Source: Trypanosoma brucei (Eukaryota). From it: 64,000 bases of DNA. How positions within the stretch are numbered: the stretch's first letter is position 1; each line of letters begins with the position of its first letter. The DNA lies in assembly GCA_000002445.1 (NCBI GenBank), contig CM000207.1:576001-640000 (forward strand), in the 5' to 3' direction. Below are positions 7,380 through 64,000 of this stretch, piece by piece. A program made the position numbers and the translations under genes. The notes under the pieces were generated by a model, which did no database searches, was not told the DNA's origin, and was given only the letters and a program-made list of their open reading frames with translations.

Positions 7380-8831
7380 CTACCGTGACCGCTGACGAAA
7401 CGACGAGTACCTGGCGGAAGGAACGTCACCAGCGAAGTTTATGGCTCTTCGTTGGCGCCGTCTCCCGGTTCTGTTGGTCCTGTCCAAACCTTGCATTAGG
7501 GAAGGTGTTTTGGCATTTCGTTGATCAATCGACCCTTCCCGCGATCTCCCCGACTCTTGTGAAACAGGGCAGATGACAGTCACAGCCCGGTCGTCATCCA
7601 CTGGGGAAACTTGCAGGCATCCACCGCTACAAGAGTCTAACAAAGAAGTTTGTGACGATTTACCTTCGGTCTCAGGCGCAGGTCCCTCTTTTGCATTCTC
7701 GATTATCGAGCTCACCGTTTCCAAAGGTCCAAACCACGCTGACGACCACCGTGACATCCCTCCTCTCGCTTCGGCCGGCAGAGAAAAAGACGGTGACCCC
7801 GAAGCAACGCACCCCGAGTATGTCCGAGGCGAATCGGTTGCCCACGCTCCCATTGTTTCATGCGGAGGCAAGATCCGACTATTATGGATATTACATGTAG
7901 TCATATCCTTTGGCATTCCGTTAGGAGACTCAACAGAAATATCACTGTTAGGGGAATGCGCCGTTATTGATTCATCCACAAACCACTCAGATTCTTCGGG
8001 TACCGCTTGGAACGTGTACGAGGGCACAAAGGGAGTGCGATGGTAAAAATTGACATCCAGCACATCAACGTACATGTCGTCTGACATCCGCGGTACAAAA
8101 GGGTGACTGCCAGTACCGTTAGGCACACCAAACCACGACCGATCCCTGTTATGTTGCGATGGTAACAAGATACCACCGCTTCGCATGCCACTTGACTCTT
8201 CACAAGGTATATATCGACTACCACCGTTTATTATAGAAGAAGGAAACCCCCTTCCCGTGAAGAGCGAACTGGTAGTGATGGGAGGCCCCTCGTGCTGGCT
8301 GGAGGGTAGAGGCAGTTTGCTTCCCTGCTGCCGCGCAACATCCACGCGGTGTGTTTTGTCAGTTCCGCCACCGTCAGCGATATTTCCCTCACTCGTTGAT
8401 TCATCCTTCAATGTGGGAGGCGTTGTGGACTCGTGCCCAACAGCATCGGTGGTAGTTTCCGCACGTGGCGACCGCAGCTCAGTTGCTGCCTTCACTGACC
8501 AGTCCAATGCCACGCAGTCGACCCCACGACTGCTACTTCCTCCGCTTGAGGTTAATCCAGTTGGGCGACGAGTGGAACGGCGGGCGCGCCTCGGGATCCT
8601 TGACGACCCTTCAGCCTTATTTCTCCCCAACCGAATACCACTGTTACTTCTATTAACATTGTTAATACCACCTTCACTCACGCGCATTGCAGGGTCGCTG
8701 TGACGAATAGAACCGATTTGATTATGGTCATCGCCTGCGTCTTGAAAACCAGTATTAGTGGTGTTGCTACTGGGAGCAAGGCCTCTTTGAACCGTTGCTC
8801 GCGCCTTACTGCCTCCGGTCCACCGAAGCAT
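7380..8831 (-). CDS. Hypothetical low-complexity (S/R/G/T-rich) protein, 483 aa
   Basis: Minus-strand ORF co-oriented with its neighbours. The composition is biased and I see no recognisable domain. The true start may be an internal Met. Confidence 0.45.
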   Translation of the reverse strand: MLRWTGGSKARATVQRGLAPSSNTTNTGFQDAGDDHNQIGSIRHSDPAMRVSEGGINNVNRSNSGIRLGRNKAEGSSRIPRRARRSTRRPTGLTSSGGSSSRGVDCVALDWSVKAATELRSPRAETTTDAVGHESTTPPTLKDESTSEGNIADGGGTDKTHRVDVARQQGSKLPLPSSQHEGPPITTSSLFTGRGFPSSIINGGSRYIPCEESSGMRSGGILLPSQHNRDRSWFGVPNGTGSHPFVPRMSDDMYVDVLDVNFYHRTPFVPSYTFQAVPEESEWFVDESITAHSPNSDISVESPNGMPKDMTTCNIHNSRILPPHETMGAWATDSPRTYSGCVASGSPSFSLPAEARGGMSRWSSAWFGPLETVSSIIENAKEGPAPETEGKSSQTSLLDSCSGGCLQVSPVDDDRAVTVICPVSQESGRSREGSIDQRNAKTPSLMQGLDRTNRTGRRRQRRAINFAGDVPSARYSSFRQRSR

Positions 8832-9266
8832 TACAGTATCTTGCGAAAGTTATGTTTGTACGACGCGCTATTAAGCGATCGTGCCTGAGTCCGAGGAAGT
8901 AATAGACAAGAGCAGTTTTACCACTACCGACGTGTCACTCCAACACCTCCCTTTCTGTACCTAATCCTGCTAAAAAAAAAGGGTTTCTTATGTGACCACA
9001 ACGCAATGTCACAAAGAGGGTCACAAAAACACACACAAAAACGAATATATCACTTGCTGCGAGAGTCCTTTCGTTTCTCATTTAATGTATTGTCAAATCG
9101 CAGAAATTAAATGGAAAAAATGCGGCACAACAGAAGAAAGATGAAAGGAGAAGTGAGTCTGGTACGCCAGATGCAAGAAAAACAACGAGTCCTGAAGAAG
9201 TATAATAGAAGGGTTAACACAAGAAAGATGGGAAGAAAACATAGTAACGTAAAACAAAACGAAACA

Positions 9267-9286
9267 CTCATTCACTCACTCACTCA

Positions 9287-9322
<36 letters not shown>
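9267..9322. repeat. Compound microsatellite (CACT)n(TA)n
   Basis: cactcactcactcactca followed by (ta)17. Confidence 0.95.
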
Positions 9323-9324
<2 letters not shown>

Positions 9325-10805
9325 AATAACACGACACCTGTGCATCAAAGCATGTGTACGCCGATAAGGAAAGAGACACTGGCAACAATCAGTAGCTAAG
9401 CCACCACAAACAGAGTAGGAAAGGAAAGAGAAAAAGAGAAGGCGAGAAAAAACCGTAAATGTGCTTCGACCATCGACCTCCTTCGATTAGTGTTGTTGTG
9501 GACCACAAAAAGGCCAAAGAAAAGAAGGATGCCAGTGAATTTAAAAAGAAAATTTCATGGCAACGATAAATGTAGGTGAAGTGGGCGGAATCATTTGCAT
9601 TGCATTCGCTTGCTTGCCCACTGAGTACAAGGGAAAGCAACAACAAAAAAGGGGAGAGGAAGCGAGGAGAGAAGGAAAAACAGCCGACATTCAGAAGTGT
9701 GTCGTGAAAAGAGGGAAGAGCGACAACAACTGCAAAAAGCAGTAGAACAAAGGTATATATATATATATAGTCCCCTCCAAACTCCCTAGAACCACACAAA
9801 CAAAAACGGTGGAAGTCAAACTATTTCCCTCGTTCTCACTCATATTTTTAAGCACTCAAGCGCATGTACATTCTACAATTATAACGGGGTCTATATTGAT
9901 CCCATGCAACCCGCTGACGGCACCGCTACCCTCACCGTCTCGTAACATGCTCAGTTACGCCATCAATACCCAGCCCCATGAACCGTTTTTATCCTCCCTG
10001 TGTTGCTTCGCTTCTGACGCACATAGATAAAGTGGAACAGGGATAAAAATAAACTCCCTTCCGGCAACAAGTCATTTTTTCACCTCTTATAACAGTCTAC
10101 AACCTTCTCCGTCCCACACCCACACCATCATTATCATTATCTTCGGTTTTTCAACTTTATCACCATCATCTTTTCACTCACACGACACACAAACCTTCAA
10201 CCCCCCCCCCACACACACACACCACACTCTAATACAACCACATCACATGCTCCAAAGAGCCTTTCACCTTATCCTCGTGATTACAAACAGCAACAAAAAG
10301 ACGCACTCCTATTCGTTTTCACTCCTTCGCTCCTACTCCAATTCCCTTTTTGCACCGAATCAAACAGCAATACTTACACGAGCCGACAAAAAACAGTGAG
10401 ACACCGGGGGCAGCGGTGGCGGTAAAGTAAAGTGAAGTTGAAGTGAAGGGGAAAAACAAACAAACGGACAAAAAAGAAGGGAGGAAGCAGTCATTCAGCT
10501 GCTGGACAAAATAAAAAGTAAAGGTTGTATAACAAGAAGTGCTCCTATAGGGTACAGCTGCTGTGCGCACATTTGACGAAGATAAGGAAAAAGGTGGTGT
10601 GGTGACGCGAACAGAGTGTGGCGGGGGGGGCATGGAAAAAAATAAGTGGATGTCGACATCTCCCTTCCCGAATATCCAAACAAAGTACACCAAACGAAGG
10701 GGAAAACAACAGTTATACATACCTACTTCAATCAATAGATTACCTTAATGGTTGAACAAGATTATAAGGTACCTCCCCTTCCCTCTTTCCTCTTCACTAA
10801 CTTTC

Positions 10806-21430: not shown

Positions 21431-22105
21431 TTAAATAGCAACCATGATACCTCTTTCGTGACGCAGTAAAGCCAGCTTATCATCCAATATCTGAGCAAAT
21501 CCCAATAAAGAAGGCTTCACCCCTGCGATGCGGTGGACAGGAACCAACCCAAAGAAACAGTTGTCACGCAGCGCCCTTTCAGCGACACCAACCTGGAACT
21601 TTCTGCAGAAATATCGGTATTCCTTCTGTGTTCCAGCTTCGATTTTAATTACTTCCCTCCATACTTCGCCGTAATTAAACGCATCCGGTGGCATGTGTAA
21701 CGGAATTGACCTTAAAATATTATTTATTTCTCTCCTTCTTTTTTCCAAACCTTCAAGGCTGTCGCCCGATGGTGCAAGTGGATAGTTGAAATAGCGCCAA
21801 ACCAACAACGCGGTCCGTTCATGAGGGATGTGCGGAACGCCACCTTCTTCCGCGCCTGCGTTTTCATGCAACTGAGGGAATGGCACCTCCATAAGAGCTG
21901 CGTTGGGGCAGACTTTACGAAGCCACTCATTAACGTCAAAACGAGAGCCTTCCCTGTAGCAACACAAAACAGCGCCGCTTTCACCAACAAAGAGAAAAAT
22001 ACAACGCTTCCACCATAAAAGGCGATAAACAAATACAGTACAACGAACAACATCACAAGAAAACACGCAGAAAACCATGATAAAGCAAAAAACCAAATAC
22101 AACAA
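21431..22105 (-). CDS. Hypothetical protein; probable true start is an internal Met near 21892 (MEVPFPQLHE...)
   Basis: The ORF N-terminus (MLYLVFCFIMVFCVFSC...) is a translation of a pyrimidine-rich tract and is unlikely to be coding. The distal 150 aa (..RSIPLHMPPDAFNYGEVWREVIKIEAGTQKEYRYFCRKFQVGVAERALRDNCFFGLVPVHR..) looks protein-like. I recognise no family. Confidence 0.4.
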   Translation of the reverse strand: MLYLVFCFIMVFCVFSCDVVRCTVFVYRLLWWKRCIFLFVGESGAVLCCYREGSRFDVNEWLRKVCPNAALMEVPFPQLHENAGAEEGGVPHIPHERTALLVWRYFNYPLAPSGDSLEGLEKRRREINNILRSIPLHMPPDAFNYGEVWREVIKIEAGTQKEYRYFCRKFQVGVAERALRDNCFFGLVPVHRIAGVKPSLLGFAQILDDKLALLRHERGIMVAI

Positions 22106-39630: not shown

Positions 39631-40610
39631 GAAGGCAACTATATCAGCACGTTTCCCGTTAAATCTGCTATCAGTACACCCCAACAAGAGGGCACCGTGC
39701 CATTACATTCCATTGCACGAAAGTGCTGAAAAAAGGTACACTCAGTTCGCGGGATCATCACGAAGCAGACGAACACATGCTTCTCCGGAGCCACCAGAAG
39801 GCATCATGCGGCACGAAGTGAAGCTCACTGACCTCGGATTGCCCCGTGTTGTGCCTTGAATGCATGGAGGGGAGAGAGTAGGTTCAAATCAAGAAAGCAC
39901 AGAGGGTGAAGAAAGGATTAGATTAAAACTAAGGCAGACACTCCTGGGGAAGGTACAAAATAACGCATCTCGCACAGTGTCGGCACTAGAGCAGCAGCGG
40001 TACGCCATAACTAGCTTCATTTTCTGTGCTGTACAACACTCACACTCTCACACGCCTCAGGAACCCAAGTGGAAGCAGTCATACCCGTTGGGAGCTAATA
40101 GCGCGTTCTCAGTGTACGGAGAAGTTGATATCACTGTAGTGAAGGCAACTATATCAGCACGTTTCCCGTTAAATCTGCTATCAGTACACCCCAACAAGAG
40201 GGCACCGTGCCATTACATTCCATTGCACGAAAGTGCTGAAAAAAGGTACACTCAGTTCGCGGGATCATCACGAAGCAGACCAACACATGCTTCTCCGGAG
40301 CCACCAGAAGGCATCATGCGGCACGAAGTGAAGCTCACTGACCTCGGATTGCCCCGTGTTGTGCCTTGAATGCATGGAGGGGAGAGAGTAGGTTCAAATC
40401 AAGAAAGCACAGAGGGTGAAGAAAGGATTAGATTAAAACTAAGGCAGACACTCCTGGGGAAGGTACAAAATAACGCATCTCGCACAGTGTCGGCACTAGA
40501 GCAGCAGCGGTACGCCATAACTAGCTTCATTTTCTGTGCTGTACAACACTCACACTCTCACACGCCTCAGGAACCCAAGTGGAAGCAGTCATGCCCGTTG
40601 GGAACTAACC
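39631..40610. repeat. Tandem direct duplication: two ~466 bp units with a 510 bp period (39631-40096 and 40141-40606), ~99% identical, in an intergenic region
   Basis: By eye the two copies are identical apart from a few substitutions (gacgaacacatg vs gaccaacacatg; catacccgttgggagctaat vs catgcccgttgggaactaac). The duplication explains the twin plus-strand ORFs 39860..40369 and 40370..40624, which share an N-terminus. Confidence 0.9.
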
Positions 40611-41242
40611 ATATTGTTCTCTAAACCACGAAATATCAAAAAAGGGGGGAAAAGTGATTACCGTGCTTGGGTATCCCTCAATGAATCTTAGCTCAGCAGT
40701 AAACAATGTAAAAGAAATATAATTGTTACTTTACGATTCCATACCTCTTCCTCGGGTGTCAGGGTTAGTAAAGGGACGGACAAAATGCGACACCGTACAT
40801 TCCGTAAGTTTTTATTTTTCAACCGTATCTTCTCTTTTCTTCTCCTCGTTTCCAACTGCTTTCCCTCTATTCTACCTTCCGCGGTCGAGTGGGGCACCGC
40901 ACAAAACAGTGTGGACCATATCCTTCCCTACAGTAGGAAACGGGCATGGCATAGTGGCCCCCTTCACTACAACGCTGGCACAAAAGGAAAAGCATGAGAC
41001 GTTGTCGATCGGGAGGTGAAAACGCCGATAATTATACAGCTTCACATGCAAAATTCAACGCCAAACACCATCTGTCTGGTGTTCAACCACATCAATTAGA
41101 GTGTGCGTGTGGAGGCGCTCACAAAAAATACATTCATGCTTCCCTGGTACATGGAGTTTGGCATCTCACACTCAACAATCAAACCCCACATGCTCATCTT
41201 GTCACTTTCTATCCTCTAAAAGGCAGATGTTTCTTGCATCGC

Positions 41243-41488
41243 TTAGGCAGTTGCGGTTAACCGCGAGCGGTAGTTTCGGAAAGCGCGTTGAATGACTCGG
41301 GCAGACTTTTCATGAGTGGCAGCCGTCGCCTTCGCGCACCGCGCAGTCGCCCATTGTCGTAGGAACTCGTAAACATCATTAGGCTTCTCGCGGACAGCAT
41401 CGGCAACGAAATCCTCAAGGAGGGGGCCTACACCAATGCGCTCGAGATAGTCGCGCTGTCCCTCGCTGTATTCAAGGCCAAAACTCAT
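41243..41488 (-). CDS. Small RIIa (dimerisation/docking) + IQ-motif protein, SPA17/ropporin-like; likely flagellar
   Basis: MSFGLEYSEGQRDYLERIGVGPLLEDFVADAVREKPNDVYEFLRQWA is an RIIa/DPY-30-type docking domain. ARVIQRAFRNYRSRL is an IQ motif. The ORF in the track extends to 41836, but that extension (MCVCFHVLELRTVFFF...) is a translation of a (CA)n/A-run-rich non-coding tract, so I call the start at 41488. Confidence 0.7.
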   Translation of the reverse strand: MSFGLEYSEGQRDYLERIGVGPLLEDFVADAVREKPNDVYEFLRQWATARCAKATAATHEKSARVIQRAFRNYRSRLTATA

Positions 41489-42222
41489 GATGCCCGGTAT
41501 GCACTCACAAACCTTACCTTTCCCCCTCACCCTTCTCAGCACTCTAAACGTATCCAGATGAATCCAGCAGAAGGGTGACAATGAGAAGAGGAAGCAGCAC
41601 TGGCACTGAGAAAAAATACAGTCAGCACATGTCCGCCAACGACTGGCCTTACATGCGGATTCACACACACAACACACGCTCTTATCCTTGTCGACGTTAA
41701 CCAATAAATAGCAAAAAAAAGGTAACCAAACGAAACGTACTGAGGTACGACTTTGGTGTCCAGTGAGTTTTGCTACAACTATGGTTGAAAAAAAAAAAAC
41801 AGTACGTAACTCCAAAACATGAAAACACACACACACACGTTCGCAGCGGCCAAACCAACAAAAAATCGCGCAGAGATCTGAAACATATCATCCAAGGCAA
41901 CACACGGACAGTGAACTAAAATAAAAAAGTATTATAAGATAATTCGGCAGCCAGGAAAGCATGTGCCTTACACCCACACGACAACAGAGCTCTGTGGGTT
42001 GGAAACCCCTGTACGACTGTGTACACAGACCCCATGCCCCACCACCGCATACCCAAATCCCCCTAATATCTGTTCCCATTTGTTATTCCAAACCCGCCTT
42101 CCGAGGTAGTGCACTAACTTACTCGAGGCATAGTGTGAAGACCGGTGTTGCTCAGGGGTTGGTGGGGCTGGGGAGAAAACCCATGTTCCCGTCGGCCCAG
42201 GCAGAGGAAGAAGAGCATAAAG

Positions 42223-43068
42223 CTAATTCTCCCACGAAATTCTACTTCCCAGACTTGAGGGGCACGACCGGCACCGAGGTAAGGTAGCAAAAGACTCCTC
42301 GTAAGGCATTGGCGACAGAAATACATTTGATTCCCGCCGCCGCCGGCGCCAGTGCGGCTGTAAACTTCGGGGGTACTGTTGGTGGGAGTCACCCGTCTGC
42401 TTTTCCTCAACTTCTGTATTGTCAGCGAACCCCTCGGCAAGGGGGCACTCATTAAGCAACCGCCAGTACGGCGAGTCCTGAGTAATGCAACGCTGCTCCC
42501 GTATGCATATCCGCCGTCCAGCTGCCTTTGTGAAGGCTGTGGGAACCCAAATTGTGATAGCTGGTATATCATGATTATCACCACTCTCCACGTCGATGTT
42601 GATCTCGTTCTCAGCGGCGGCATAAAATGCAGTAACGCCCTCTGTAGCGCAGCTTCCGGGCGACTGCATCTTTCCAAAGAACTCCCCATCACAGGATCCA
42701 CATAGAGAAGGCGACTTTTTGTGAACAGGGGACAAGAAGTCAGCAGCAAAGGCGGCGTCTGCATCACCGCGGTCCACAGTAAATCCGTCTGCAGCCGCCG
42801 ACTGTACGGCAACCTCTCGTTCCCGGGAGTATTCACCACCACCTGCGTCCAGTTGGACATTCTCTTTCGCTTCCTCCATATGGCTTTTAGAAGTTTTGAA
42901 TAGTAAGGAATGCCTTCTACTGCGAAGCGAGGCTGGCGCTGACGCCGGCGGCTGTAGCAAGAAAAGGAAAGAGAAAGCACAGCTCGAAAGCTCTTTTTTC
43001 TTGTGCGGGCCCAAATGTGTGTCATGTGATGCAACAGGGCTGGGGTTACGGGGACAAGTGCTATCCAA
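42223..43068 (-). CDS. Hypothetical acidic protein (frame choice uncertain)
   Basis: Two overlapping minus-strand ORFs exist. This frame has protein-like composition (..FYAAAENEINIDVESGDNHDIPAITIWVPTAFTKAAGRR..), whereas the overlapping 42114..43034 frame is R/S/L-rich junk. The start may be the internal MEEAKENVQ. Confidence 0.35.
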   Translation of the reverse strand: MDSTCPRNPSPVASHDTHLGPHKKKELSSCAFSFLFLLQPPASAPASLRSRRHSLLFKTSKSHMEEAKENVQLDAGGGEYSREREVAVQSAAADGFTVDRGDADAAFAADFLSPVHKKSPSLCGSCDGEFFGKMQSPGSCATEGVTAFYAAAENEINIDVESGDNHDIPAITIWVPTAFTKAAGRRICIREQRCITQDSPYWRLLNECPLAEGFADNTEVEEKQTGDSHQQYPRSLQPHWRRRRRESNVFLSPMPYEESFATLPRCRSCPSSLGSRISWEN

Positions 43069-54944: not shown

Positions 54945-56645
54945 CTATTGCTTTTCTGTTCCCCCCCTGCTTTTGCAACTAGACTTCCGTGAAGAAGATC
55001 TCCGCTTCCTACGGCTATGGCTACGGCTACGGCTACGACTCTTTCTCTTTCTTCTCGGCTTGCCCTTTCGGCGTTTCTTCCTCGAAGGAGAACCCAGGCG
55101 CGTGCCTCTCGAACAGAGCGTAGGTCGCCGGCGGCCCATATGAGGGAACGTAGATGAAAGCTCGGGTGGTATAGGAGGACGCAGGAAGCCCATTGTCCCA
55201 AAGGAGAACCGACGTAAGTCCAGTGATGTAGGATTTACAATAGGAGGCAGGTTAGTACTGCCATTACCAAGCACATCAGCGCTTATCAGCCCATATTCTT
55301 CGCGGCGATCCACGTAGTGGTGGGTAAGTCTGTCGGAGCACGAACCGATATTGTATGTCTTATCATCGTAGCGAACAGGCAAGGTGTCTGTGTATTTGGG
55401 TACGACGGCACGCAGTGCGTCCTCGGTTACTTCATCATCATCAGAACTGTCTCCTTCTGCGACGAAAAGGTTAACCGCAGACCGGCCAACACTATATTGG
55501 CGTCTTCCCTCTCGTTTCACCCGTGGTATATTGCGAAGCAGATCATCTGGTGCAAGGCTGTCGGTAAATGGAGTTGGACTCTTCTCGCGCAGGTGATCAG
55601 CATCGTCTATGTAGTCGTCAAAAGAATCCATGCTCTCACTATCATGGTCAGCGGCTGAATGGCTGAGAAAGCGAAGGAAGTCAAACGTGTAGTTGGCAGG
55701 ATCCACAAGCCCTCGGGATTGGAGAGCCTTTACGACACCCTTGACGTCCTGCTGCACCAGAGTTTCTCCAAGTCGAACGAGCTCCCAAGCACTCTCAGAA
55801 CAGTTTTTCCTTTTGCGTACCATCAGCACAATGCATGAATTATGCCCCACAGTCGTCACTTGCACGGGAACAATTGCTAAGGGAAGTCTTTCATTTGCCT
55901 TTTTTACCGCATAATACACTCCTGTCGCTTCGCAGAGGGGCACCTCTTTCGTAAATAAAGTGGAGCACAAAGAAAAACCGGCGCACATCGACACTTTCTT
56001 CAAGTTTGCAACGACAGTATCACCAGCCACCACCTTCGGACCACCAGCAGGTTCGAGGAAGTTGTCTGAAACTTTACAAGCAGTGTCAACAGAAACCACA
56101 TCGTGCGCCCTATGCAGGAGGCCTTTATCATTCGTCATCCTTCGCCCGACGCCAACATAATCAATCTGTCTCCCATGTTCTCTAAAAAGACAAGCTGTTG
56201 TGTCGAAAAATAATAATGGTTTACCGTCCTCAGGCAAGGGACGATAAAGGGTTATCTCAAGCTCGGTGACGTGACTGCTGATGAGTGAAGATTCGCCTTC
56301 TCCAAGAACTGGAACTGGAGATATCGCCCCTTCGGGGGAGTTAGTTCCTGACTCTGACGAAGTCATCCCCGCTTTGCTCACTTTCCTGACCGAGCCGCGT
56401 CGCTTTCCACGCCTCGACCCGGTCCGAGAGCGACGAGACGAACGACGAGACGAGCGGCGTCGCCTACCCTTTGATTTACTTCTCCGGCCACCTCTACGTT
56501 TTGTTTTAGATTTACTTTTTGATCTCCTCCGCCTCTGGCGCGGGGAACCCGCTCTCGAACCTTTTCTCGTTGGTGGCCCAGTGGGAATCTTTGTCCCACT
56601 CAGCGTCCCGGCTAAGCTCCGATCCTCGTCACTACCAAGATCCAT
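54945..56645 (-). CDS. Protein with arginine/serine-rich (RS) domains at both termini, 566 aa
   Basis: N-terminus RRRRSKSKSKTKRRGGRRSKSKGRRRRSSRRSSRRSRTGSRRGKRRGS and C-terminus RKKRRKGKPRRKRKSRSRSRSHSRRKRRSSSRKSS flank an ~400 aa acidic/globular core. I identified no RRM. Confidence 0.6.
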   Translation of the reverse strand: MDLGSDEDRSLAGTLSGTKIPTGPPTRKGSRAGSPRQRRRRSKSKSKTKRRGGRRSKSKGRRRRSSRRSSRRSRTGSRRGKRRGSVRKVSKAGMTSSESGTNSPEGAISPVPVLGEGESSLISSHVTELEITLYRPLPEDGKPLLFFDTTACLFREHGRQIDYVGVGRRMTNDKGLLHRAHDVVSVDTACKVSDNFLEPAGGPKVVAGDTVVANLKKVSMCAGFSLCSTLFTKEVPLCEATGVYYAVKKANERLPLAIVPVQVTTVGHNSCIVLMVRKRKNCSESAWELVRLGETLVQQDVKGVVKALQSRGLVDPANYTFDFLRFLSHSAADHDSESMDSFDDYIDDADHLREKSPTPFTDSLAPDDLLRNIPRVKREGRRQYSVGRSAVNLFVAEGDSSDDDEVTEDALRAVVPKYTDTLPVRYDDKTYNIGSCSDRLTHHYVDRREEYGLISADVLGNGSTNLPPIVNPTSLDLRRFSFGTMGFLRPPIPPELSSTFPHMGRRRPTLCSRGTRLGSPSRKKRRKGKPRRKRKSRSRSRSHSRRKRRSSSRKSSCKSRGGTEKQ

Positions 56646-57250
56646 TCCCTAAAAAATCACTAAACAAAGAGGGGGTCACGACGTATATGTGCACCCAGAG
56701 AAAGTAACACAGTCACAACCCCAGTAAAATATCGTAGTGTGAGCAATACAACTGGTTTTTAAAAAAAACGAAGCCTCGAGGGCTCAGCTCGTCCGTCCCT
56801 ACAAAAACAACATGCGCTAAGACAAGAGAACTTTTGCTTAGCCACGGCGAACAAGAAGTTGCTGAAGTTCACATAACACAACCGGAAAAAGCAAAAGTGA
56901 AAAAAAGTGGTAACAAAAAAACGGAAAAAATAAATACAAAAAATGGGTAAACTTTCCATGAACCGTAAGCACGAACTACACATAATTGAGCATACAAAAT
57001 AAACATATGCATTATAAACACCTGGAACAAAATAAACAGCAGTGCAAGACACCGGCTAAGCACCATGACCTTGTGATCATATGCAGCAAGGGTGAACTTC
57101 GGGTACTTTCCTCCCCCCCCAAAAAAAAAGCCCCTTAACCCATAATCATGTCAACTTACACAACAAAGAAAAAAATCATCAAATATTAAAAACCGAACGA
57201 AGCAAAATTAAACGTAAAAACAAGTAAGCGATTTTTAAAAAAAGGGTGCA

Positions 57251-57253
<3 letters not shown>

Positions 57254-57282
<29 letters not shown>
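57254..57282. repeat. (TA)n microsatellite
   Basis: Direct inspection. Confidence 0.95.
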
Positions 57283-57286
<4 letters not shown>

Positions 57287-58722
57287 CATACAGTGATAGC
57301 TGATCGTGAGAAGATGCACGGAGGTTTGATAACGACTCATTTTAAAACAATGGCGTACATGGGGGAAATATTTAAGTTCGTTTGTTTTTGTTTTTTTTTT
57401 TTAAACAGGCACATAACCGCCTTTCGTGGAGAATTTTCGGTGTCCACGAGTAGCCATGCCAATAAACCAAGTAAATTTCTTAACTACAGCTTGCCGAGAG
57501 CGAGCGTCTTATCGCTGGAGTCCACAATCGTAAAAATATTCATCACACGTCATACATAAATGGGAAAGAAAAAAACATTAAAATGTAACGTGGCGATGGG
57601 AAAACAAGAATTTTATCCACACAACCTTATGGCTCCACTATTTTCCCCCTCCCCAGCCTCGCGCACAAAATCCTACCAAATTGTCGCTGGTTACATTCTT
57701 CACCCGAAATGAAATGAGCATGTCCTGCATCCAATGAGAGAGTGAGTGAATGGAAGAAGGTCTGTTTTAAAAAGGGGGGGAGGAAGTCGCTCTTCAACAA
57801 GAAAACATGCTCGCCTTCTGCAATCACCATTTAACAAACATGGTTGAAGCAAACGAACCATCTTCCAAAACACTCGTTTTCTAGCTAATAACTACGTATA
57901 TGTATATTATAACTAAATTGACAAATATTCGTATTTGTATATAAACAACGACAACAACACCAATAATAATAATGGTGATAGCAATTGAAAATGTGCACCT
58001 CATTCCCTTAATTGAACACTTCCGTTGAAGCAGTAAATTAAAGGGAAACACAAAGCATTATAATGATCCCACGTTGAGTCCGAGTGGTGCGATTATGTGT
58101 CATTAAAGCGAATATTCCGTGGAAAGAACGGGTCTCAGCAACAGCATCACCTCGTCAGATCAGTATCCACTACCACAGTTCATTATATCATTTAATTTTT
58201 GCAGCATATCAGGTACCGACACTAGTTCTGGCATGTCAAAAACTGCAATAAAAGGGAAATGGCTAGCACAACTGCTCTCAGCCGGAGTTACCCTCAGTCA
58301 CAACAACCCATATAACTAAGCATTTTTATCCTACACTACCAAAGATAGTAAAATAAACAACAATGCTTGACAATGTTTTTACCCAATAAAAAAAAAAGGT
58401 CAGCTGGTGACAAAAGGATAGAAAAGTTAGAGTAAAACAGATACACCGAGAAGAAACATAGCGCACATTCCAAACGCGACAATTATGTTTCGCCCACCCA
58501 GAGAAAACGTATGTATTGTTCCACAACCCTCCGCTACGGTAAGGGGTAAAAGATATATATGTATGTGTCAACAAAACAGGCTAACAAAACGACGGAATAC
58601 AGTCCTTTACATCAACTCAACCCATTGGGTGTTATACTAGTATTGGCTATGGTCCTACTTTAAAACAATCAAAAAAATAAAAAATGGAAGTAATAACCCC
58701 ATCCGTGAAGATACTAAAGCTA

Positions 58723-59313
58723 CTAGTTACTGATTTTGTTCCCATCCTTGAAAATCTCAGGTCGTTCAATGACAGCAGGTGTCTGGAACACATGATCTGG
58801 TATCTCCGCTCCACGATAAAGCGATTCGAGAAGCGAGGCGGCACCTCGGGGAGTGGCCTCCCACTTCATGGTCTCCAGAAGGGACTTTGCCAAAAAATCC
58901 ACGAGCTCAATGTGTGGTATAACCACCTTTGCATAATCGTCATCAGGGTCAGCAAATGCCTCGAGGTGGTGTCCATCCATCTCAACAGTAAGTTGTCCAC
59001 CTTTGTCATCAAGGATTGGGTAAGCTGTGAGGCTGTAACACTTCAATAGTCGATGTGGGTCACCCAAGTGAGGTGGAAGAAACACCCGAATGTATGTCTT
59101 GTTTTCTTTGGCAACTTCACCTAATCGACGCAGAACATCGGCATCACGAGGATCCATCGTCGAGGCGTACTGACTTCTGATGCGGTCATTTACTTCGGGC
59201 TTGCGAAGCATGCAGCTGAAAATTGTGTCCAACGCCGCATTATCCCAACCTTTCCCAAAGAAGTTACGACTCAAAGGCACAGTTGCCAAAAATGGTGTGA
59301 CAAAGCGCTTCAT
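58723..59313 (-). CDS. Hypothetical protein, 196 aa (globular, protein-like composition)
   Basis: Clean minus-strand ORF with a purine-rich (minus-strand pyrimidine) tract immediately upstream. No motif I can name. Confidence 0.55.
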   Translation of the reverse strand: MKRFVTPFLATVPLSRNFFGKGWDNAALDTIFSCMLRKPEVNDRIRSQYASTMDPRDADVLRRLGEVAKENKTYIRVFLPPHLGDPHRLLKCYSLTAYPILDDKGGQLTVEMDGHHLEAFADPDDDYAKVVIPHIELVDFLAKSLLETMKWEATPRGAASLLESLYRGAEIPDHVFQTPAVIERPEIFKDGNKISN

Positions 59314-59830
59314 CTAAAACAATAGATCGTTCTATTATCTCTTCAACTTATCTGCTCGTTTGAATTGGGCGATCAAAAAAATACAGAAGATGTTTAGAAC
59401 GGTAAAAATAGGGGTTTACAAAAAAAAATCTCATCGGGAACAGGAAAATGATTTTAAACCAAAGAAAACTCTCGCCTTAACCCTCAATATTTTTATTAGT
59501 CGTTAAAAGGTCAAACGGCATTTTCGGTACCTAAATATTCCATGTAAGTAGATAGACAAGAGCCACCGTGCGATACTGACACCGCCTCAAACCATAAATA
59601 AAGCGGCGAGGGAAAACAACCCGACAATAGATGATGGGACCGACAGAAGACATATTTCGGGAACATATTGTTCCATCCAATTGAGGGGGAACAAGCAACG
59701 AAAGCGTTTTGATTAAATCCTATCTCTGCTTAAGTGTTACCTTACATTGACAACAAGTTCTTCTTTGTATCAACGACCACAGCACCAATAGTGAAACAGG
59801 AAGCGCAGATGCTTTCTATTATGTTCAAAT

Positions 59831-59866
59831 ATGTATATATATACATATATATACATATATACATGT
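59831..59866. repeat. Imperfect (TA/TG/CA)n microsatellite
   Basis: atgtatatatatacatatatatacatatatacatg. Confidence 0.85.
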
Positions 59867-62800
59867 AGTTATTGACAGTGTTTTCCAATAGTGTTGATAA
59901 GTGTGCTCTCGACTTTGAAACAATAATTTCACTCAACCGAAAACTACGAGAAATCAACGTAGTGTCGTATCACTAACAAAAAACTTAAGGTGAAAAAGTG
60001 CAAGAATAGTGCTAACGCACAGGAAAATCTGAGTGGAGCATTAGAATAATTCCACCATCAACAAACTGAGCATTACTACCCCCAAGACGTTCTTGGTTGA
60101 AATTTACACTCCGAAAAAAATCGTCAATTATGCATCAACTCTTTCCTCACAAAGTACGGTACCTTCAAGGCAACGCGACGTTGAAAGTTAATAAAGCTCA
60201 TGGAACCCATACATCAACCACATGTGCATAAAGCAAAAACATCTTTTTCCTTCAAAACAAGAAATTAGGCCACAAAACTTAAAGATCATTCAACCCCCCC
60301 CCCCTCAGTCAGGAGCTCAACACCACAGGGGGGGTACTCATCTCCCACATCATCGATGTTACGATTACCCTCTAAATAAATCCACATAATGTGGCAAAAA
60401 AAACCCTTCTACATAGACTAGAAACGTAAGCAGGTAACGGGAAACAATACTAAGAACATCCTTTGTAAGGAAAAGGAAAACGCAAACATCCCATAGACAA
60501 GAGCCAGGAATCACTGCGTATTTATTAGCATCCCGTGGGCACCCACAAACTGTACGCCGCAAGCAGTAAATTCCACATAATTAAGGTCAAAGTAATGTCA
60601 CTGTAGCGTCAGCTGCACCTTGCTTACCCTTTTAGGTGCCGCCAATAAGCATACCACTTGGACTACCAGACGATGAAAAGTTAGGTGCCCGCCGGCAAAC
60701 CAATACCAAAAATTAATAACAGTAATGATAACTTTCATAAGGGTGGGACCATGTTGTAGGTATGGACGGCATGCCCCACATGGCAACAAGTGAATATACA
60801 CCAACGCCAAATACCAAATGCACAACCTCAAGTTATCATCAAAGAAAAATATTAATATGGGCGGGAAATGACCAGCCTGACATGGGTTGCACTGGCCAGA
60901 GCGCCTCACCAACCAGTCAAAAGGCATATGGCGGGGGCAAGACACTTTCTATCTGTTACTACCCGAATATGCTCACAAAAGCAATGACATCACACAGAGC
61001 CACACTCTCTCTCTCTCGCCCTCCTTGTCTCGGTTGAAGGAGAAGCGTAGCGGGCCGTACCACCTTAGCCGTTCCACGAATCACCTAAGCCAATCCATCA
61101 CAGCATTCAACTCCACACAACATGTAACTCCGGTTCAGATTATACGTACGCAACCCCACCCCAACCCGCTCATCACATAAATTTAAAATATTGCGGTGCA
61201 TCCTCGCCTCGGTTTCTCGAACAAAAACAAGCAACATCCGCAAAAACTAAACAAAGTAGAGGGACCAAATATGAAAAGGCATAGAATGCGTCGACCCTCA
61301 GCAGCCGTCTCGAAACTGTTGGTGCCGCACCACACACCACAACAACTGCAGCAACAACAACCGCATTCGCTACCCATGGGATAAGAGGGGGGAAATGAGC
61401 AGGTGGGAGCGTGTTCAGGAAATTCTCCACGGCGAGGTAGCCCCTGAGTAGCGACAACCCGAAGCAGAAAGACTTGGGAAGGGGTGGTCGAGCCACAGCA
61501 GTGGCAACCAATCGACGCGCACCGCCAGCATACGCCAGACGGGGAAAGGACTCCCACGCCACCCCGCATTACAAGCAGCGCCGCCACCACAGCGCCGCAG
61601 AAAATAAGGTAAAGTCAGGGGGGAAAACACTCCAACCAGCAACGCGGTACAAATTCCCATACCTTTACCCATGCAGGAGTCGCCAACGTGCCTCAACCCC
61701 CAATACCCCTCGTCAGGAATAGATTGAAATGGAAGAGTATGAAAATAATCTGTCGCGTGACGTCCAACAGTAGCGTTACGGTTCAAGAATGGACACCAGA
61801 ACCCCCTACCACGCAGTTGTGCCAAACACCCAACAAAAAACACAGTCCGGACGAAGTCACCTCGCACCGGCCATATGGAGGTGAGTCCCAGGCCTGCCCC
61901 GCCCAGCACTAAGCACAATGCTGCCCATCTCTCTTATACAGAACGAACAAGGTCAAAAAATGTGCAAACTGCGAAAAAAGCCATCTTCTCTACACCGAAA
62001 GGGCAAATTTCAACCGGTGGAAGAAAAACGACCCCATCCACCCCTCACAAGAGCACCGGCTGCCGGCTGTGACTCAAAGAGAAAAGGAATGCCCATCCTC
62101 TTTCTTGAACACACGGCGATAGTACTTACGTTGCGGCGTTTCGCCGCAAAAAACTTATCCGCACGTCACAGCACACAGCGCAGTTTCCCCGTCCCACATT
62201 CACATCCGGCCGCTTCCCTGCGCCCCAAAAAGGTTATCGCGGGACGACCGGACGACACCTACCCCTTGGTGTGCGCTAAGCCCGTCCCCTCAGTTGACGA
62301 CAGAGATTCTGCACTTTATTGGCGCGCGTTTGGTATCTGCAACGACAAAAAACGTGGTGGGGAACCCCCACCGCAATATTCATCAAAAAAAAAAAAAGCT
62401 GGCGTTGTACGCGACACAACTTGCTAATGGAACTACCCTGTTGCAAACCGAGTGCCACGGGCCACTAAGGACAATGAACGCCACACAACGTTATTTACTG
62501 TTTTGGTGTGTGCCGCAACTCCGAAGAGCCACCAATTTCACTGCAAATATCCTTAAGAGAATCATATCCGTGGAAACACGATAACTTGGGGAAGCCGAAA
62601 CTCATCACACAGGAGAAACTTGGAAATACTAAGGACTAGAGAAATACCCACAGCCATACCGACGCACAGCTGCAACAGTCATTCATGATGGACCGCCCGC
62701 CGCAGCCCGGTGGGTAGAACAATATCGGGGACCCTTGTTCCGTGACAATGGGGTTGGCCAAAATGGAGAATGAGACGGATGCTTCCGCAAGTAATATTGA

Positions 62801-64000
62801 GCGGAAACGCCATGCAGCACAGAGGCGAACGTCTTTATATGGCGGTGCTCGACTCCAACGGTGTCAAGAGAAACGTTACAAAATGAGTATATCCAATAAA
62901 AACGGCCTGAAACGTCAGCGGCCGAGTTTAGTACAGTGCTTCCAGGCAGCGACCGCCGGATTTGGAAACAGAACAACGAGGCAACACCATTCCACGCACC
63001 AGTTAGTGATGGCCTGCGCCACGATGCCATCAAAACGCTACAAACACGTACTGCGGGTATACCGAAGGGTAAAAACACTACTGGAATAAGATAATGGAAA
63101 AGGGTTAGTTCCTGTTGAAAACGAACAGCATAAATTCGTGCTAAGACTCTTGAGAACCCCCAGTAGTTCCTAATTCCCAACCCTTCTTGACGACAAACTT
63201 GGTGTGAGAATCACATCGCACCGAGGGAGAAGATGGGCAATTACTCCATAACTCCGAATATATCTGAAGGGTTAAATCCTGTCCCATCTCCTTCCCCGCC
63301 CGACACTGACCATTTCAAAGGTGATAGAAAGAGAAAACTGTGAGAACATATGGCGACAGGTGAAACGGTGAAAGTCCAAGCGGGGGTTTAGCCACGCCAT
63401 CCTCTTTATTGTTTGTTCCAAATCACCTCAAACAGCGAGCTAAATGAGGGGTGCGCAACAAATTCGCAAACATGGTGCATCAAGCTCACCTACTCTCTAC
63501 ACCGCCTTCTTTCCAACAGATCAAGTGGCAGCAGCTCAATTGGACGAATCTCCCCGACTCCAACAAGTATAGTTTAACAAAGGTTAAACAAAAAGCACAA
63601 TCCCAAAACTCTGCTGTTACTAGCCGCAACTGCTTTCTTTCCCAACCTACGTCCCCTACTGCGGAACTAAATCACCAAAATAGTTTCCTCCCTAACACCC
63701 AAGCGATAAGGAGCAAGGCTGCTAATGAATATGCGCCACGGAATGAGCGCCGCACCTACGAATAGGACACGTAAACACATTGGTAGACTCAAAAAAAAAA
63801 AAAGAGGCATATATAGTCCAGAAAATCCTTTCGAGCTACTGCGACCCTGACAAGCTCCGACAACCACGTCAAAGCAAAACTATATTCCTCTCGTCACCTA
63901 TTGACAATCCGAGGTTTGTAGCGTTCTGTTCACATCAGGAAAAAGAATATGGTCCTGCACTATTCAAAACGAAAAAGAGAAGGCTACTACCGACAAGGCT

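What the first reader, a model, noticed from the sequence alone, without database searches (positions are those of the whole stretch)
59314..64000. 4.7 kb gene-poor region at the 3-prime end of the window, with frame-fragmented overlapping ORFs at 61173-61918
Upstream (on the transcribed strand) of the last confident gene there is no clean long ORF for 4.7 kb. This is much longer than the other intergenic gaps. At 61173-61918 all three minus-strand frames carry overlapping 130-170 codon ORFs, plus plus-strand ORFs, in a C/A/G-rich tract. The pattern is typical of a decayed gene or retroelement remnant (frameshifted pseudogene), or of a stop-codon-poor compositional island. It could also be the approach to a strand-switch or transcription-start region just beyond the window.
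Basis: seen in the sequence. Interest (0 to 1): 0.5.

Follow-up and report, generated by a model that had tools for sequence, protein, structure and literature searches.

The report
Gene-free start region of a trypanosome transcription unit
The 4.7 kb "gene-poor" stretch is one arm of an already catalogued 7 kb divergent strand-switch region on Trypanosoma brucei chromosome 9, where two gene arrays start in opposite directions, and its overlapping ORFs are by-products of T-poor base composition rather than a decayed gene.

Summary
Nothing longer than 169 codons is open in 59314-64000. Three overlapping minus-strand ORFs in three frames sit at 61173-61918, where T is only 14%.

The window is T. 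b. brucei TREU927 chromosome 9, 626,962-690,961. The last gene is COXV (Tb927.9.3170). In related strains the next real gene, an acidocalcisomal exopolyphosphatase, lies 7.06 kb away on the opposite strand. [quoted passage not shown]

Published Bdf3 CUT&RUN peaks flank it. The coding strand is GT-rich throughout (15:0 strand bias of published start-region 10-mers, plus a G11 run).

The ORFs show:
- no codon bias;
- no Pfam match in six frames;
- no homologue outside T. brucei "hypothetical, unlikely" calls;
- neutral-looking substitutions;
- no frameshift differences between three assemblies.

The pseudogene/retroelement reading is not supported.

One unexpected detail: 895 bp (62034-62928) recur in a chromosome 1 strand-switch region. 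The position and orientation are the same there, and the two copies evolve in concert.

The parts
58723..59313 (-). COXV (cytochrome c oxidase subunit V, Tb927.9.3170), the first gene of the leftward polycistronic unit. A strong published Bdf3 site (TREU927 685862-686262 = window 58901-59301) lies inside it.
   Evidence: 99% identical to the T. brucei-group COXV. (PMC9241505 Tables S4 and S1; coordinate offset 626961).
59314..64000 (-). COXV-side arm of the divergent strand-switch region. It is non-coding, and its coding (minus) strand has G+T of 0.59. The whole region is 7057-7058 bp and runs about 2.4 kb beyond the window.
   Evidence: opposite-strand DHH/DHHA2 gene in L001. (collinearity at 98.4-98.7%). 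(composition). (TREU927 coordinates).
59314..59480 (-). Probable COXV 5' UTR with polypyrimidine tracts (T9 at 59420-59428, T7 at 59375-59381 on the minus strand) and AG acceptors. The position of the splice site is inferred, not shown.
   Evidence: Sequence read directly; inference from the known trans-splicing signal.
59820..59861 (.). TA/TATACA microsatellite. It is the only sequence of the region with other matches inside the window.
60294..60304 (-). G11 run on the coding strand, about 1 kb upstream of the COXV ATG. G10 is the 10-mer most enriched on the coding strand at the 5' end of T. brucei start regions.
   Evidence: (Wedel 2017 Dataset EV1: 132 coding-strand against 17 non-coding-strand occurrences in region 1).
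61000..62500 (.). GC-rich (0.52-0.55), T-poor hump of the arm. It has the lowest stop-codon density and the highest divergence between strains (16-22 substitutions per kb against T. b. gambiense).
61173..61918 (-). The three overlapping minus-strand ORFs (129, 135 and 167 aa) of the finding. They are chance ORFs. The 135-aa frame carries the TREU927 (64 aa) and DAL972 (128 aa) 'hypothetical protein, unlikely' calls. The GT 10-mer cluster at 61328-61362 lies inside it.
60762..61037 (+). ORF annotated as Tb09.160.1830 (91 aa, 'T. brucei spp.-specific protein'). It is antisense to the COXV unit and shows 1 synonymous against 3 non-synonymous changes versus T. b. gambiense. Probably not a gene.
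62034..62928 (-). 895 bp block with sharp ends that is also present in a chromosome 1 divergent strand-switch region. Its orientation relative to the downstream unit is the same, and it lies 2.7 kb (chr 9) and 2.4 kb (chr 1) upstream of the first gene. The copies are homogenised within T. b. gambiense.
63205..63477 (-). Older, diverged homology (67-73% identity) to the same chromosome 1 strand-switch region, collinear with the 895 bp block.
63325..63725 (.). Weak published Bdf3 consensus site (TREU927 690286-690686).
63964..64000 (.). First 37 bp of a 1.66 kb segment that forms the skew-neutral centre of the strand-switch region. The segment is duplicated at 99.4% identity about 50 kb away on chromosome 9.

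Best explanation
The region is the COXV-proximal arm of the divergent strand-switch region between Tb927.9.3170 (COXV, leftward) and Tb927.9.3280 (acidocalcisomal exopolyphosphatase, rightward) on T. brucei chromosome 9. RNA polymerase II starts transcription of the two polycistronic units in such regions.

The arm encodes no protein. Its coding strand is rich in G and T, so the plus strand is poor in T. All three stop codons need a T on one strand or an A on the other, so stops are rare in all six frames where T falls to 14%. Overlapping ORFs of 130-170 codons appear there by composition alone.

Inferred, not shown: transcription towards COXV starts somewhere in the arm. The most likely place is the proximal kilobase between the G11 run (60294-60304) and COXV, just upstream of the strong Bdf3 peak. 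RNA made upstream of the first trans-splice acceptor would be discarded.

The distal GC-rich part includes an 895 bp block shared with a chromosome 1 strand-switch region and kept similar to it by ectopic gene conversion.
For: Identity of the window.
- Trypanosomatid TB9Cs1 snoRNAs are present.
- The ORF at 60762-61037 is identical to TREU927 Tb09.160.1830.
- Gene coordinates match TREU927 v5.1 with an offset of 626961.

Divergent arrangement.
- All long ORFs of the window are on the minus strand.
- In T. b. gambiense and T. b. equiperdum, the next real gene upstream of COXV is a DHH/DHHA2 exopolyphosphatase on the opposite strand, 7058 bp away.
- The same holds in TREU927: 686275-693331.

Composition.
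- G+T is 0.34-0.37 on the exopolyphosphatase side, neutral in the centre, and 0.56-0.64 all the way to COXV. The switch falls at the window end.
- Published start-region 10-mers hit the coding strand 15 times and the other strand 0 times.

Chromatin.
- Published Bdf3 CUT&RUN sites lie at 685862 (strong), 690286 (weak) and 694863 (strong).
- Bdf3 marks start sites, and 162 of the 268 dynamic sites in that study are within 5 kb of divergent strand-switch regions.
- General model of two directional promoters per 5-10 kb divergent region.

No coding signal.

No assembly error: three independent assemblies are collinear, with 0-3 indel columns across 60600-62600.
Against: - GT-richness and the density of the published 10-mers are no higher here than in ordinary intergenic/UTR stretches of the same unit. 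Composition alone therefore does not prove promoter function.
- G runs of at least 10 on the coding strand also occur at four other places inside the unit.
- The strong Bdf3 summit lies on the COXV coding sequence, not in the arm, and only a weak site lies within it.
- I could not examine any start-site, H2A.Z or Pol II track for this locus, so where transcription actually begins is an inference.
- The cause of the GC-rich hump is unexplained.
Confidence: 0.85

Rival explanations
1. A decayed protein-coding gene (frameshifted pseudogene) lies at about 61.0-63.2 kb. One candidate would be the remnant of the Lipid_DES/fatty-acid desaturase gene that sits directly upstream of COXV in T. cruzi.
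For: - GC content (0.52-0.55) is coding-like rather than intergenic-like.
- There are more long open stretches than dinucleotide shuffles give.
- T. cruzi has an extra gene between the strand switch and COXV.
Against: - tblastn with the T. cruzi desaturase finds nothing in this region (no hit at E <= 10 in the window segment or in L001/L002).
- No Pfam family in six frames.
- No homologue for the ORFs outside T. brucei.
- Codon-usage scores are -0.15 to +0.03 bits per codon, against 0.07-0.27 for the window's 18 real genes.
- The frames are open over the same bases instead of in succession.
- Stop depletion relative to shuffles is generic for non-coding DNA in this window.
Confidence: 0.05
2. 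The region, or its repeated parts, is a remnant of a non-LTR retroposon (ingi/RIME/DIRE) that inserted into the strand-switch region.
For: - Two parts of the strand-switch region are repeated elsewhere: 895 bp on chromosome 1, and 1.66 kb about 50 kb away on chromosome 9.
- The second copy of the 1.66 kb segment lies about 1.5 kb upstream of a degenerate reverse-transcriptase ORF.
Against: - No RT, endonuclease or RNase H similarity in the window region or in the repeated segments.
- No poly(A) tail or target-site duplication at the ends of the 895 bp block.
- No other copy inside the 64 kb window or the fetched loci.
- RIME itself is non-coding. I had no reference sequence for it, so it could not be tested.
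Confidence: 0.07
3. The arm encodes a functional non-coding RNA, or a small T. brucei-specific protein such as Tb09.160.1830.
For: - A T13 polypyrimidine tract followed by AG at about 62340-62397 on the coding strand could serve as a trans-splice acceptor (read from the sequence).
- Curators kept Tb09.160.1830 as a 'T. brucei spp.-specific protein'.
Against: - No Rfam family reaches its threshold. The only sub-threshold hits are driven by the microsatellite.
- Folding energies are not different from shuffles (z -0.57 and -0.21).
- This is the most diverged part of the locus between strains.
- ORF changes are mostly non-synonymous.
- The gene IDs I tried for this region (Tb09.160.1830, Tb927.9.3160, Tb927.9.3180) were not found in the paper library searched.
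Confidence: 0.08

Closest known systems
Divergent strand-switch regions / RNA polymerase II transcription start regions of Trypanosoma brucei (Siegel 2009, from my own knowledge; Wedel 2017 PMC5579346; Cordon-Obras 2022 as summarised in PMC11796357 and PMC13532274)
   Same: - A gene-free interval of 5-10 kb between two divergently oriented gene arrays.
- G/T-rich coding strand on each arm, with G runs.
- Bromodomain factor Bdf3 peaks on both sides.
- No conserved promoter motif.
   Different: Nothing essential differs. This locus is one of the catalogued regions. Its specific traits are the asymmetric arm lengths (0.75 kb and 4.65 kb around a 1.66 kb centre) and the repeated blocks shared with other start regions.
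Synthetic and natural GT-rich promoter elements of Wedel et al. 2017
   Same: The published 10-mers occur only on the coding strand (15:0). They include G10 and mixed G/T 10-mers of the kind enriched in the 5' fifth of start regions.
   Different: Their density is no higher than in ordinary UTR/intergenic DNA of the same unit. Promoter activity was not tested here.
'Hypothetical protein, unlikely' ORF calls of the TREU927 and DAL972 annotations
   Same: The ORFs at 61183-61590 and 62683-63180 carry this label in the public annotations. The ORF at 60762-61037 is instead labelled 'hypothetical protein Tb09.160.1830' / 'T. brucei spp.-specific protein'.
   Different: The 167-aa ORF at 61415-61918 was never annotated.
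ingi/RIME/DIRE retroposon remnants
   Same: Parts of the strand-switch region are dispersed repeats, and one repeat copy lies next to a degenerate RT.
   Different: There is no retroposon protein similarity, no poly(A) tail and no target-site duplication in the window region.

Membership tests
Divergent strand-switch region / Pol II transcription start region (T. brucei) | Lies between two gene arrays transcribed away from each other | tested here: met
   COXV and all genes to its left are on the minus strand. The next real gene is on the opposite strand, 7.06 kb away, in three genomes.
Divergent strand-switch region / Pol II transcription start region (T. brucei) | No protein-coding gene inside | tested here: met
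   No Pfam match, homologue, codon bias or purifying selection. The gene table used in PMC9241505 Table S4 lists no gene in 686275-691262.
Divergent strand-switch region / Pol II transcription start region (T. brucei) | G/T excess on the coding strand of each arm, with the sign switching in the middle, plus G runs | tested here: met
   The feature is not specific, because ordinary intergenic DNA of the unit has the same skew.
Divergent strand-switch region / Pol II transcription start region (T. brucei) | Start-site chromatin marks (Bdf3; H2A.Z/H2B.V; H4K10ac) | tested here: inconclusive
   Published Bdf3 CUT&RUN sites: strong at COXV and just past the exopolyphosphatase gene, weak at window 63325-63725. 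H2A.Z and H4K10ac tracks could not be examined.
Divergent strand-switch region / Pol II transcription start region (T. brucei) | Mapped primary-transcript 5' ends / Pol II peak | not testable with these tools
   No access to RNA-seq or ChIP-seq coverage.
Pseudogene of a conserved kinetoplastid gene | Frameshift-joined similarity to a protein | tested here: not met
ingi/DIRE/SLACS-type retroposon remnant | Similarity to endonuclease, reverse transcriptase or RNase H | tested here: not met
ingi/RIME retroposon remnant | Nucleotide match to the RIME/ingi ends; poly(A) tail and target-site duplication | tested here: inconclusive
   No poly(A) tail or duplication at the ends of the 895 bp block. 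No RIME/ingi consensus sequence was available for comparison.
Dispersed repeat homogenised by ectopic gene conversion | Copies within one genome are more alike than orthologous copies between strains | tested here: met
   T. b. gambiense chr 1 and chr 9 copies differ by 5 substitutions. Each differs by 16-20 from the TREU927 and T. equiperdum copies, and about 13 sites are shared only by the two gambiense copies.

The most novel reading that the evidence does not exclude
The 895 bp block (62034-62928), and perhaps the 1.66 kb centre segment, may be a sequence-specific component of T. brucei transcription start regions. Possible roles are a promoter-proximal, boundary or hub-targeting element. 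It would be kept at the same distance and orientation upstream of the first gene on different chromosomes and homogenised by inter-chromosomal gene conversion, perhaps because start regions lie close together in the nucleus.
Probability: 0.1. Interest if true: 0.6.

Novelty: already known. Interest (0 to 1): 0.25.

Why it matters
As a strand-switch region it is ordinary: it is one of about 150 such regions in a well-studied reference genome. The result matters mainly as a caution. T-poor, GT-skewed start regions produce overlapping ORFs that look like frameshifted pseudogenes and were once annotated as 'unlikely' proteins.

The only point of wider interest is the repeated DNA. Two strand-switch regions on different chromosomes share an 895 bp block in the same position and orientation, and the block evolves in concert. 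If this proved general, it would bear on the open question of whether trypanosome Pol II start regions contain specific sequence elements. It would also bear on whether clustered start regions exchange sequence.

Tried and rejected
- Exact look-ups of the window's COXV and Tb09.160.1830 products found no contig. Relatives had to be used instead.
- tblastn with the T. cruzi syntenic desaturase, the T. cruzi retroelement RT, RNase H and endonuclease ORFs, and the T. vivax neighbour genes gave only chance-level hits in the region.
It was repeated with stops masked and found nothing.
- A protein hit to P0090 (E 2e-4) is a repetitive 1448-aa protein matching a short low-complexity stretch. I rejected it.
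- Rfam at a relaxed threshold gave only microsatellite-driven miRNA-like noise.
- There is no canonical G-quadruplex motif in the region on either strand.
- RNA folding of the focal tract and of the 895 bp block gave no signal.
- The Cordon-Obras 2022 paper is not held, so its core-promoter motifs could not be tested.
- The replication-origin supplement (PMC3607257) holds nothing on this locus.
- A literature search for repeats or gene conversion between strand-switch regions found no description.
- GT-only 10-mer counts and G runs were considered as proof of promoter identity. They were rejected as non-specific, because other intergenic stretches score similarly.
Full report
**Where the window comes from.** Rfam finds the trypanosomatid TB9Cs1 snoRNA cluster at 39.8-40.6 kb. 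All ORFs of at least 180 aa that look like genes are on the minus strand. The last one, 58723-59313, is cytochrome c oxidase subunit V (COXV) and is 99% identical to the T. brucei-group protein. The small ORF at 60762-61037 is identical to TREU927 Tb09.160.1830. The positions of three genes agree exactly with TREU927 v5.1 chromosome 9 coordinates printed in Table S4 of PMC9241505, with an offset of 626,961. The window is therefore T. b. brucei TREU927 chr 9, about 626,962-690,961, and the finding is 686,275-690,961.

**Checking the observation.**
- Nothing longer than 169 codons is open in 59314-64000. Other gaps between long ORFs are at most 2.2 kb.
- The three minus-strand ORFs at 61173-61918 exist, in three different frames, and are overlapped by plus-strand ORFs.
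- T is 14.3% there. Stop-trinucleotide density drops to 0.023-0.030, against 0.043-0.057 in the neighbouring non-coding DNA.
- The longest open stretch is not unusual for the composition: 10-19% of dinucleotide shuffles reach it.
- The number of stretches of at least 130 codons is higher than in shuffles. However, five ordinary non-coding stretches of the window show an equal or stronger deficit of stop trinucleotides relative to the same kind of shuffle. This excess is therefore not evidence of coding.

**What lies beyond the window.** Loci fetched through the COXV protein are collinear with window 56000-64000 at 98.4-98.7% identity. In T. b. gambiense DAL972 and T. b. equiperdum, the next real gene upstream of COXV is an acidocalcisomal exopolyphosphatase (DHH/DHHA2). 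It lies on the opposite strand, 7058 bp away. PMC9241505 gives the same layout for TREU927: COXV at 685684-686274 (-) and Tb927.9.3280 at 693332-694483 (+). That table lists no gene between 686275 and 691262. [quoted passage not shown]

**Composition across the whole region.** Next to the exopolyphosphatase gene, G+T (read on the COXV coding strand) is 0.34-0.37, meaning GT-rich on that gene's own coding strand. About 1.5 kb in the centre is neutral. From the point corresponding to the window end down to COXV, G+T is 0.56-0.64. T. vivax also has opposite-strand genes upstream of COXV. T. cruzi has one more same-strand gene (Lipid_DES) before the switch.

**Is there a dead gene or retroelement?** I found no support.
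- tblastn with the T. cruzi desaturase, with the T. cruzi retroelement RT, RNase H and endonuclease ORFs fetched in L007/L009, and with the T. vivax neighbours gave only chance-level hits.
- Pfam found nothing for the individual ORFs or for all six stop-masked frames of 60.3-64.0 kb.
- The 167-aa ORF has no homologue among 5.8 billion proteins.
- The 135-aa ORF matches only TREU927's own 64-aa 'hypothetical protein, unlikely'. A second hit is a low-complexity artefact.
- Public annotations call these ORFs 'hypothetical protein, unlikely'.
- A codon-usage score trained on the window's 18 real genes gives those genes 0.07-0.27 bits per codon in frame. The minus-strand ORFs here score -0.15 to +0.03.
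- Against T. b. gambiense, 60600-62600 is the most diverged part of the locus: 16-22 substitutions per kb, against 0-8 in coding DNA. Codon changes in the ORFs are mostly non-synonymous.
- There are only 0-3 indel columns across that stretch, so the frame pattern is not a sequencing error.
- No tRNA or Rfam family is found, and no unusual RNA folding energy.

**How it most likely works.** Established knowledge:
- In T. brucei, Pol II starts polycistronic units in 5-10 kb divergent strand-switch regions that hold two oppositely directed promoters (PMC11796357; PMC13532274).
- GT-rich sequence on the coding strand can drive directional initiation and H2A.Z deposition (PMC5579346).

What I found at this locus:
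- The 157 10-mers that Wedel et al. list as coding-strand-enriched in start regions hit the coding strand of 59314-64000 fifteen times and the other strand never. The hits include a G11 run at 60294-60304 and a cluster at 61328-61362.
- Published Bdf3 CUT&RUN sites lie at window 58901-59301 (strong, on COXV), at 63325-63725 (weak), and just past the exopolyphosphatase gene (strong).
- My inference is that initiation towards COXV happens in the arm, probably in the AT-richer proximal kilobase below the G run. RNA upstream of the first splice acceptor would be discarded.

Caveats:
- GT skew, 10-mer density and G runs are no stronger here than in ordinary intergenic DNA of the same unit.
- I could not see start-site, Pol II or H2A.Z tracks.

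**An unexpected detail.** The 165-aa ORF at 62683-63180 hit an 'unlikely' ORF on T. b. gambiense chromosome 1.
- That locus is another divergent strand-switch region. It is 9.1 kb long, lies between a 256-aa gene and an enkurin-domain gene, and has the same two-arm composition.
- Window 62034-62928 (895 bp) matches it at 97.6% with sharp ends and no poly(A) tail or target duplication.
- It has the same orientation relative to the downstream unit. It ends 2.7 kb (chr 9) and 2.4 kb (chr 1) before the first gene.
- A further 278 bp just upstream is 67% identical.
- Within T. b. gambiense the two copies differ at 5 sites. Each differs at 16-20 sites from the TREU927 and T. equiperdum copies, and about 13 variants are shared only by the two gambiense copies. 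That pattern indicates ectopic gene conversion.
- A T. equiperdum contig ends inside the block, as repeats often cause.

**A second repeat.** The skew-neutral 1.66 kb centre of the region, whose last 37 bp are window 63964-64000, is duplicated at 99.4% identity about 50 kb away on chromosome 9, near a degenerate reverse-transcriptase ORF. Pfam finds nothing in that segment. I could not count the copies of either repeat genome-wide, and I found no description of them in the paper library.

**Verdict.**
- The pseudogene/retroelement interpretation is not supported.
- The 'compositional island' and 'approach to a strand switch' alternatives are right.
- The object is a known, catalogued kind of region in a reference genome, so novelty is low.
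- The shared, concertedly evolving block between start regions on two chromosomes is a modest lead worth a genome-wide check.

Noticed in passing
window 62034-62928; L014 10064-10961; L015 6710-7606: An 895 bp block of the chr 9 strand-switch region is also present in a chr 1 strand-switch region, in T. b. gambiense and T. equiperdum. Its orientation and its distance to the first gene are similar in both places. The copies within T. b. gambiense are more alike (5 differences) than copies between strains (16-20), which indicates inter-chromosomal gene conversion.
   Followed up: partly
window 63964-64000 and beyond; L001 3692-5346; L012 7081-8743: The skew-neutral 1.66 kb centre of the strand-switch region is duplicated at 99.4% identity about 50 kb away on chr 9, in inverted chromosomal orientation. 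The second copy lies upstream of a degenerate ingi/DIRE-type reverse-transcriptase ORF. Weak Bdf3 sites lie near the first copy and near the expected position of the second, with a strong one 5-7 kb downstream of each.
   Followed up: partly
window 42114-43068: Two overlapping minus-strand ORFs, 42114-43034 and 42223-43068. The codon-usage score favours the frame of the second (0.22 against 0.07 bits per codon), so the real gene is probably 42223-43068.
   Followed up: no
window 21431-22105 and 41243-41836: Two ORFs of about 200 aa on the transcribed strand have non-coding-like codon scores (-0.03 and -0.01) and intergenic-like A/T skew. They may be chance ORFs in UTRs.
   Followed up: no
window 39779-40619: Tandemly duplicated H/ACA snoRNA cluster (TB9Cs1H1, H2 and H3, two copies each, period about 510 bp).
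   Followed up: no
L007-L010 (T. cruzi) 8356-9408: T. cruzi has a Lipid_DES/fatty-acid desaturase gene between the strand switch and COXV. It is absent from this position in T. brucei and T. vivax, and no remnant was detected in T. brucei. Retroelement ORFs (RT, RNase H, endonuclease) flank the T. cruzi locus.
   Followed up: partly
window 54945-56645 versus L002 12933-14345: The 566-aa conserved hypothetical protein (Tb927.9.3130) is called as only 470 aa in the T. b. equiperdum assembly, and the alignment shows 9-10 indel columns there. This is either a strain frameshift or an assembly error.
   Followed up: no
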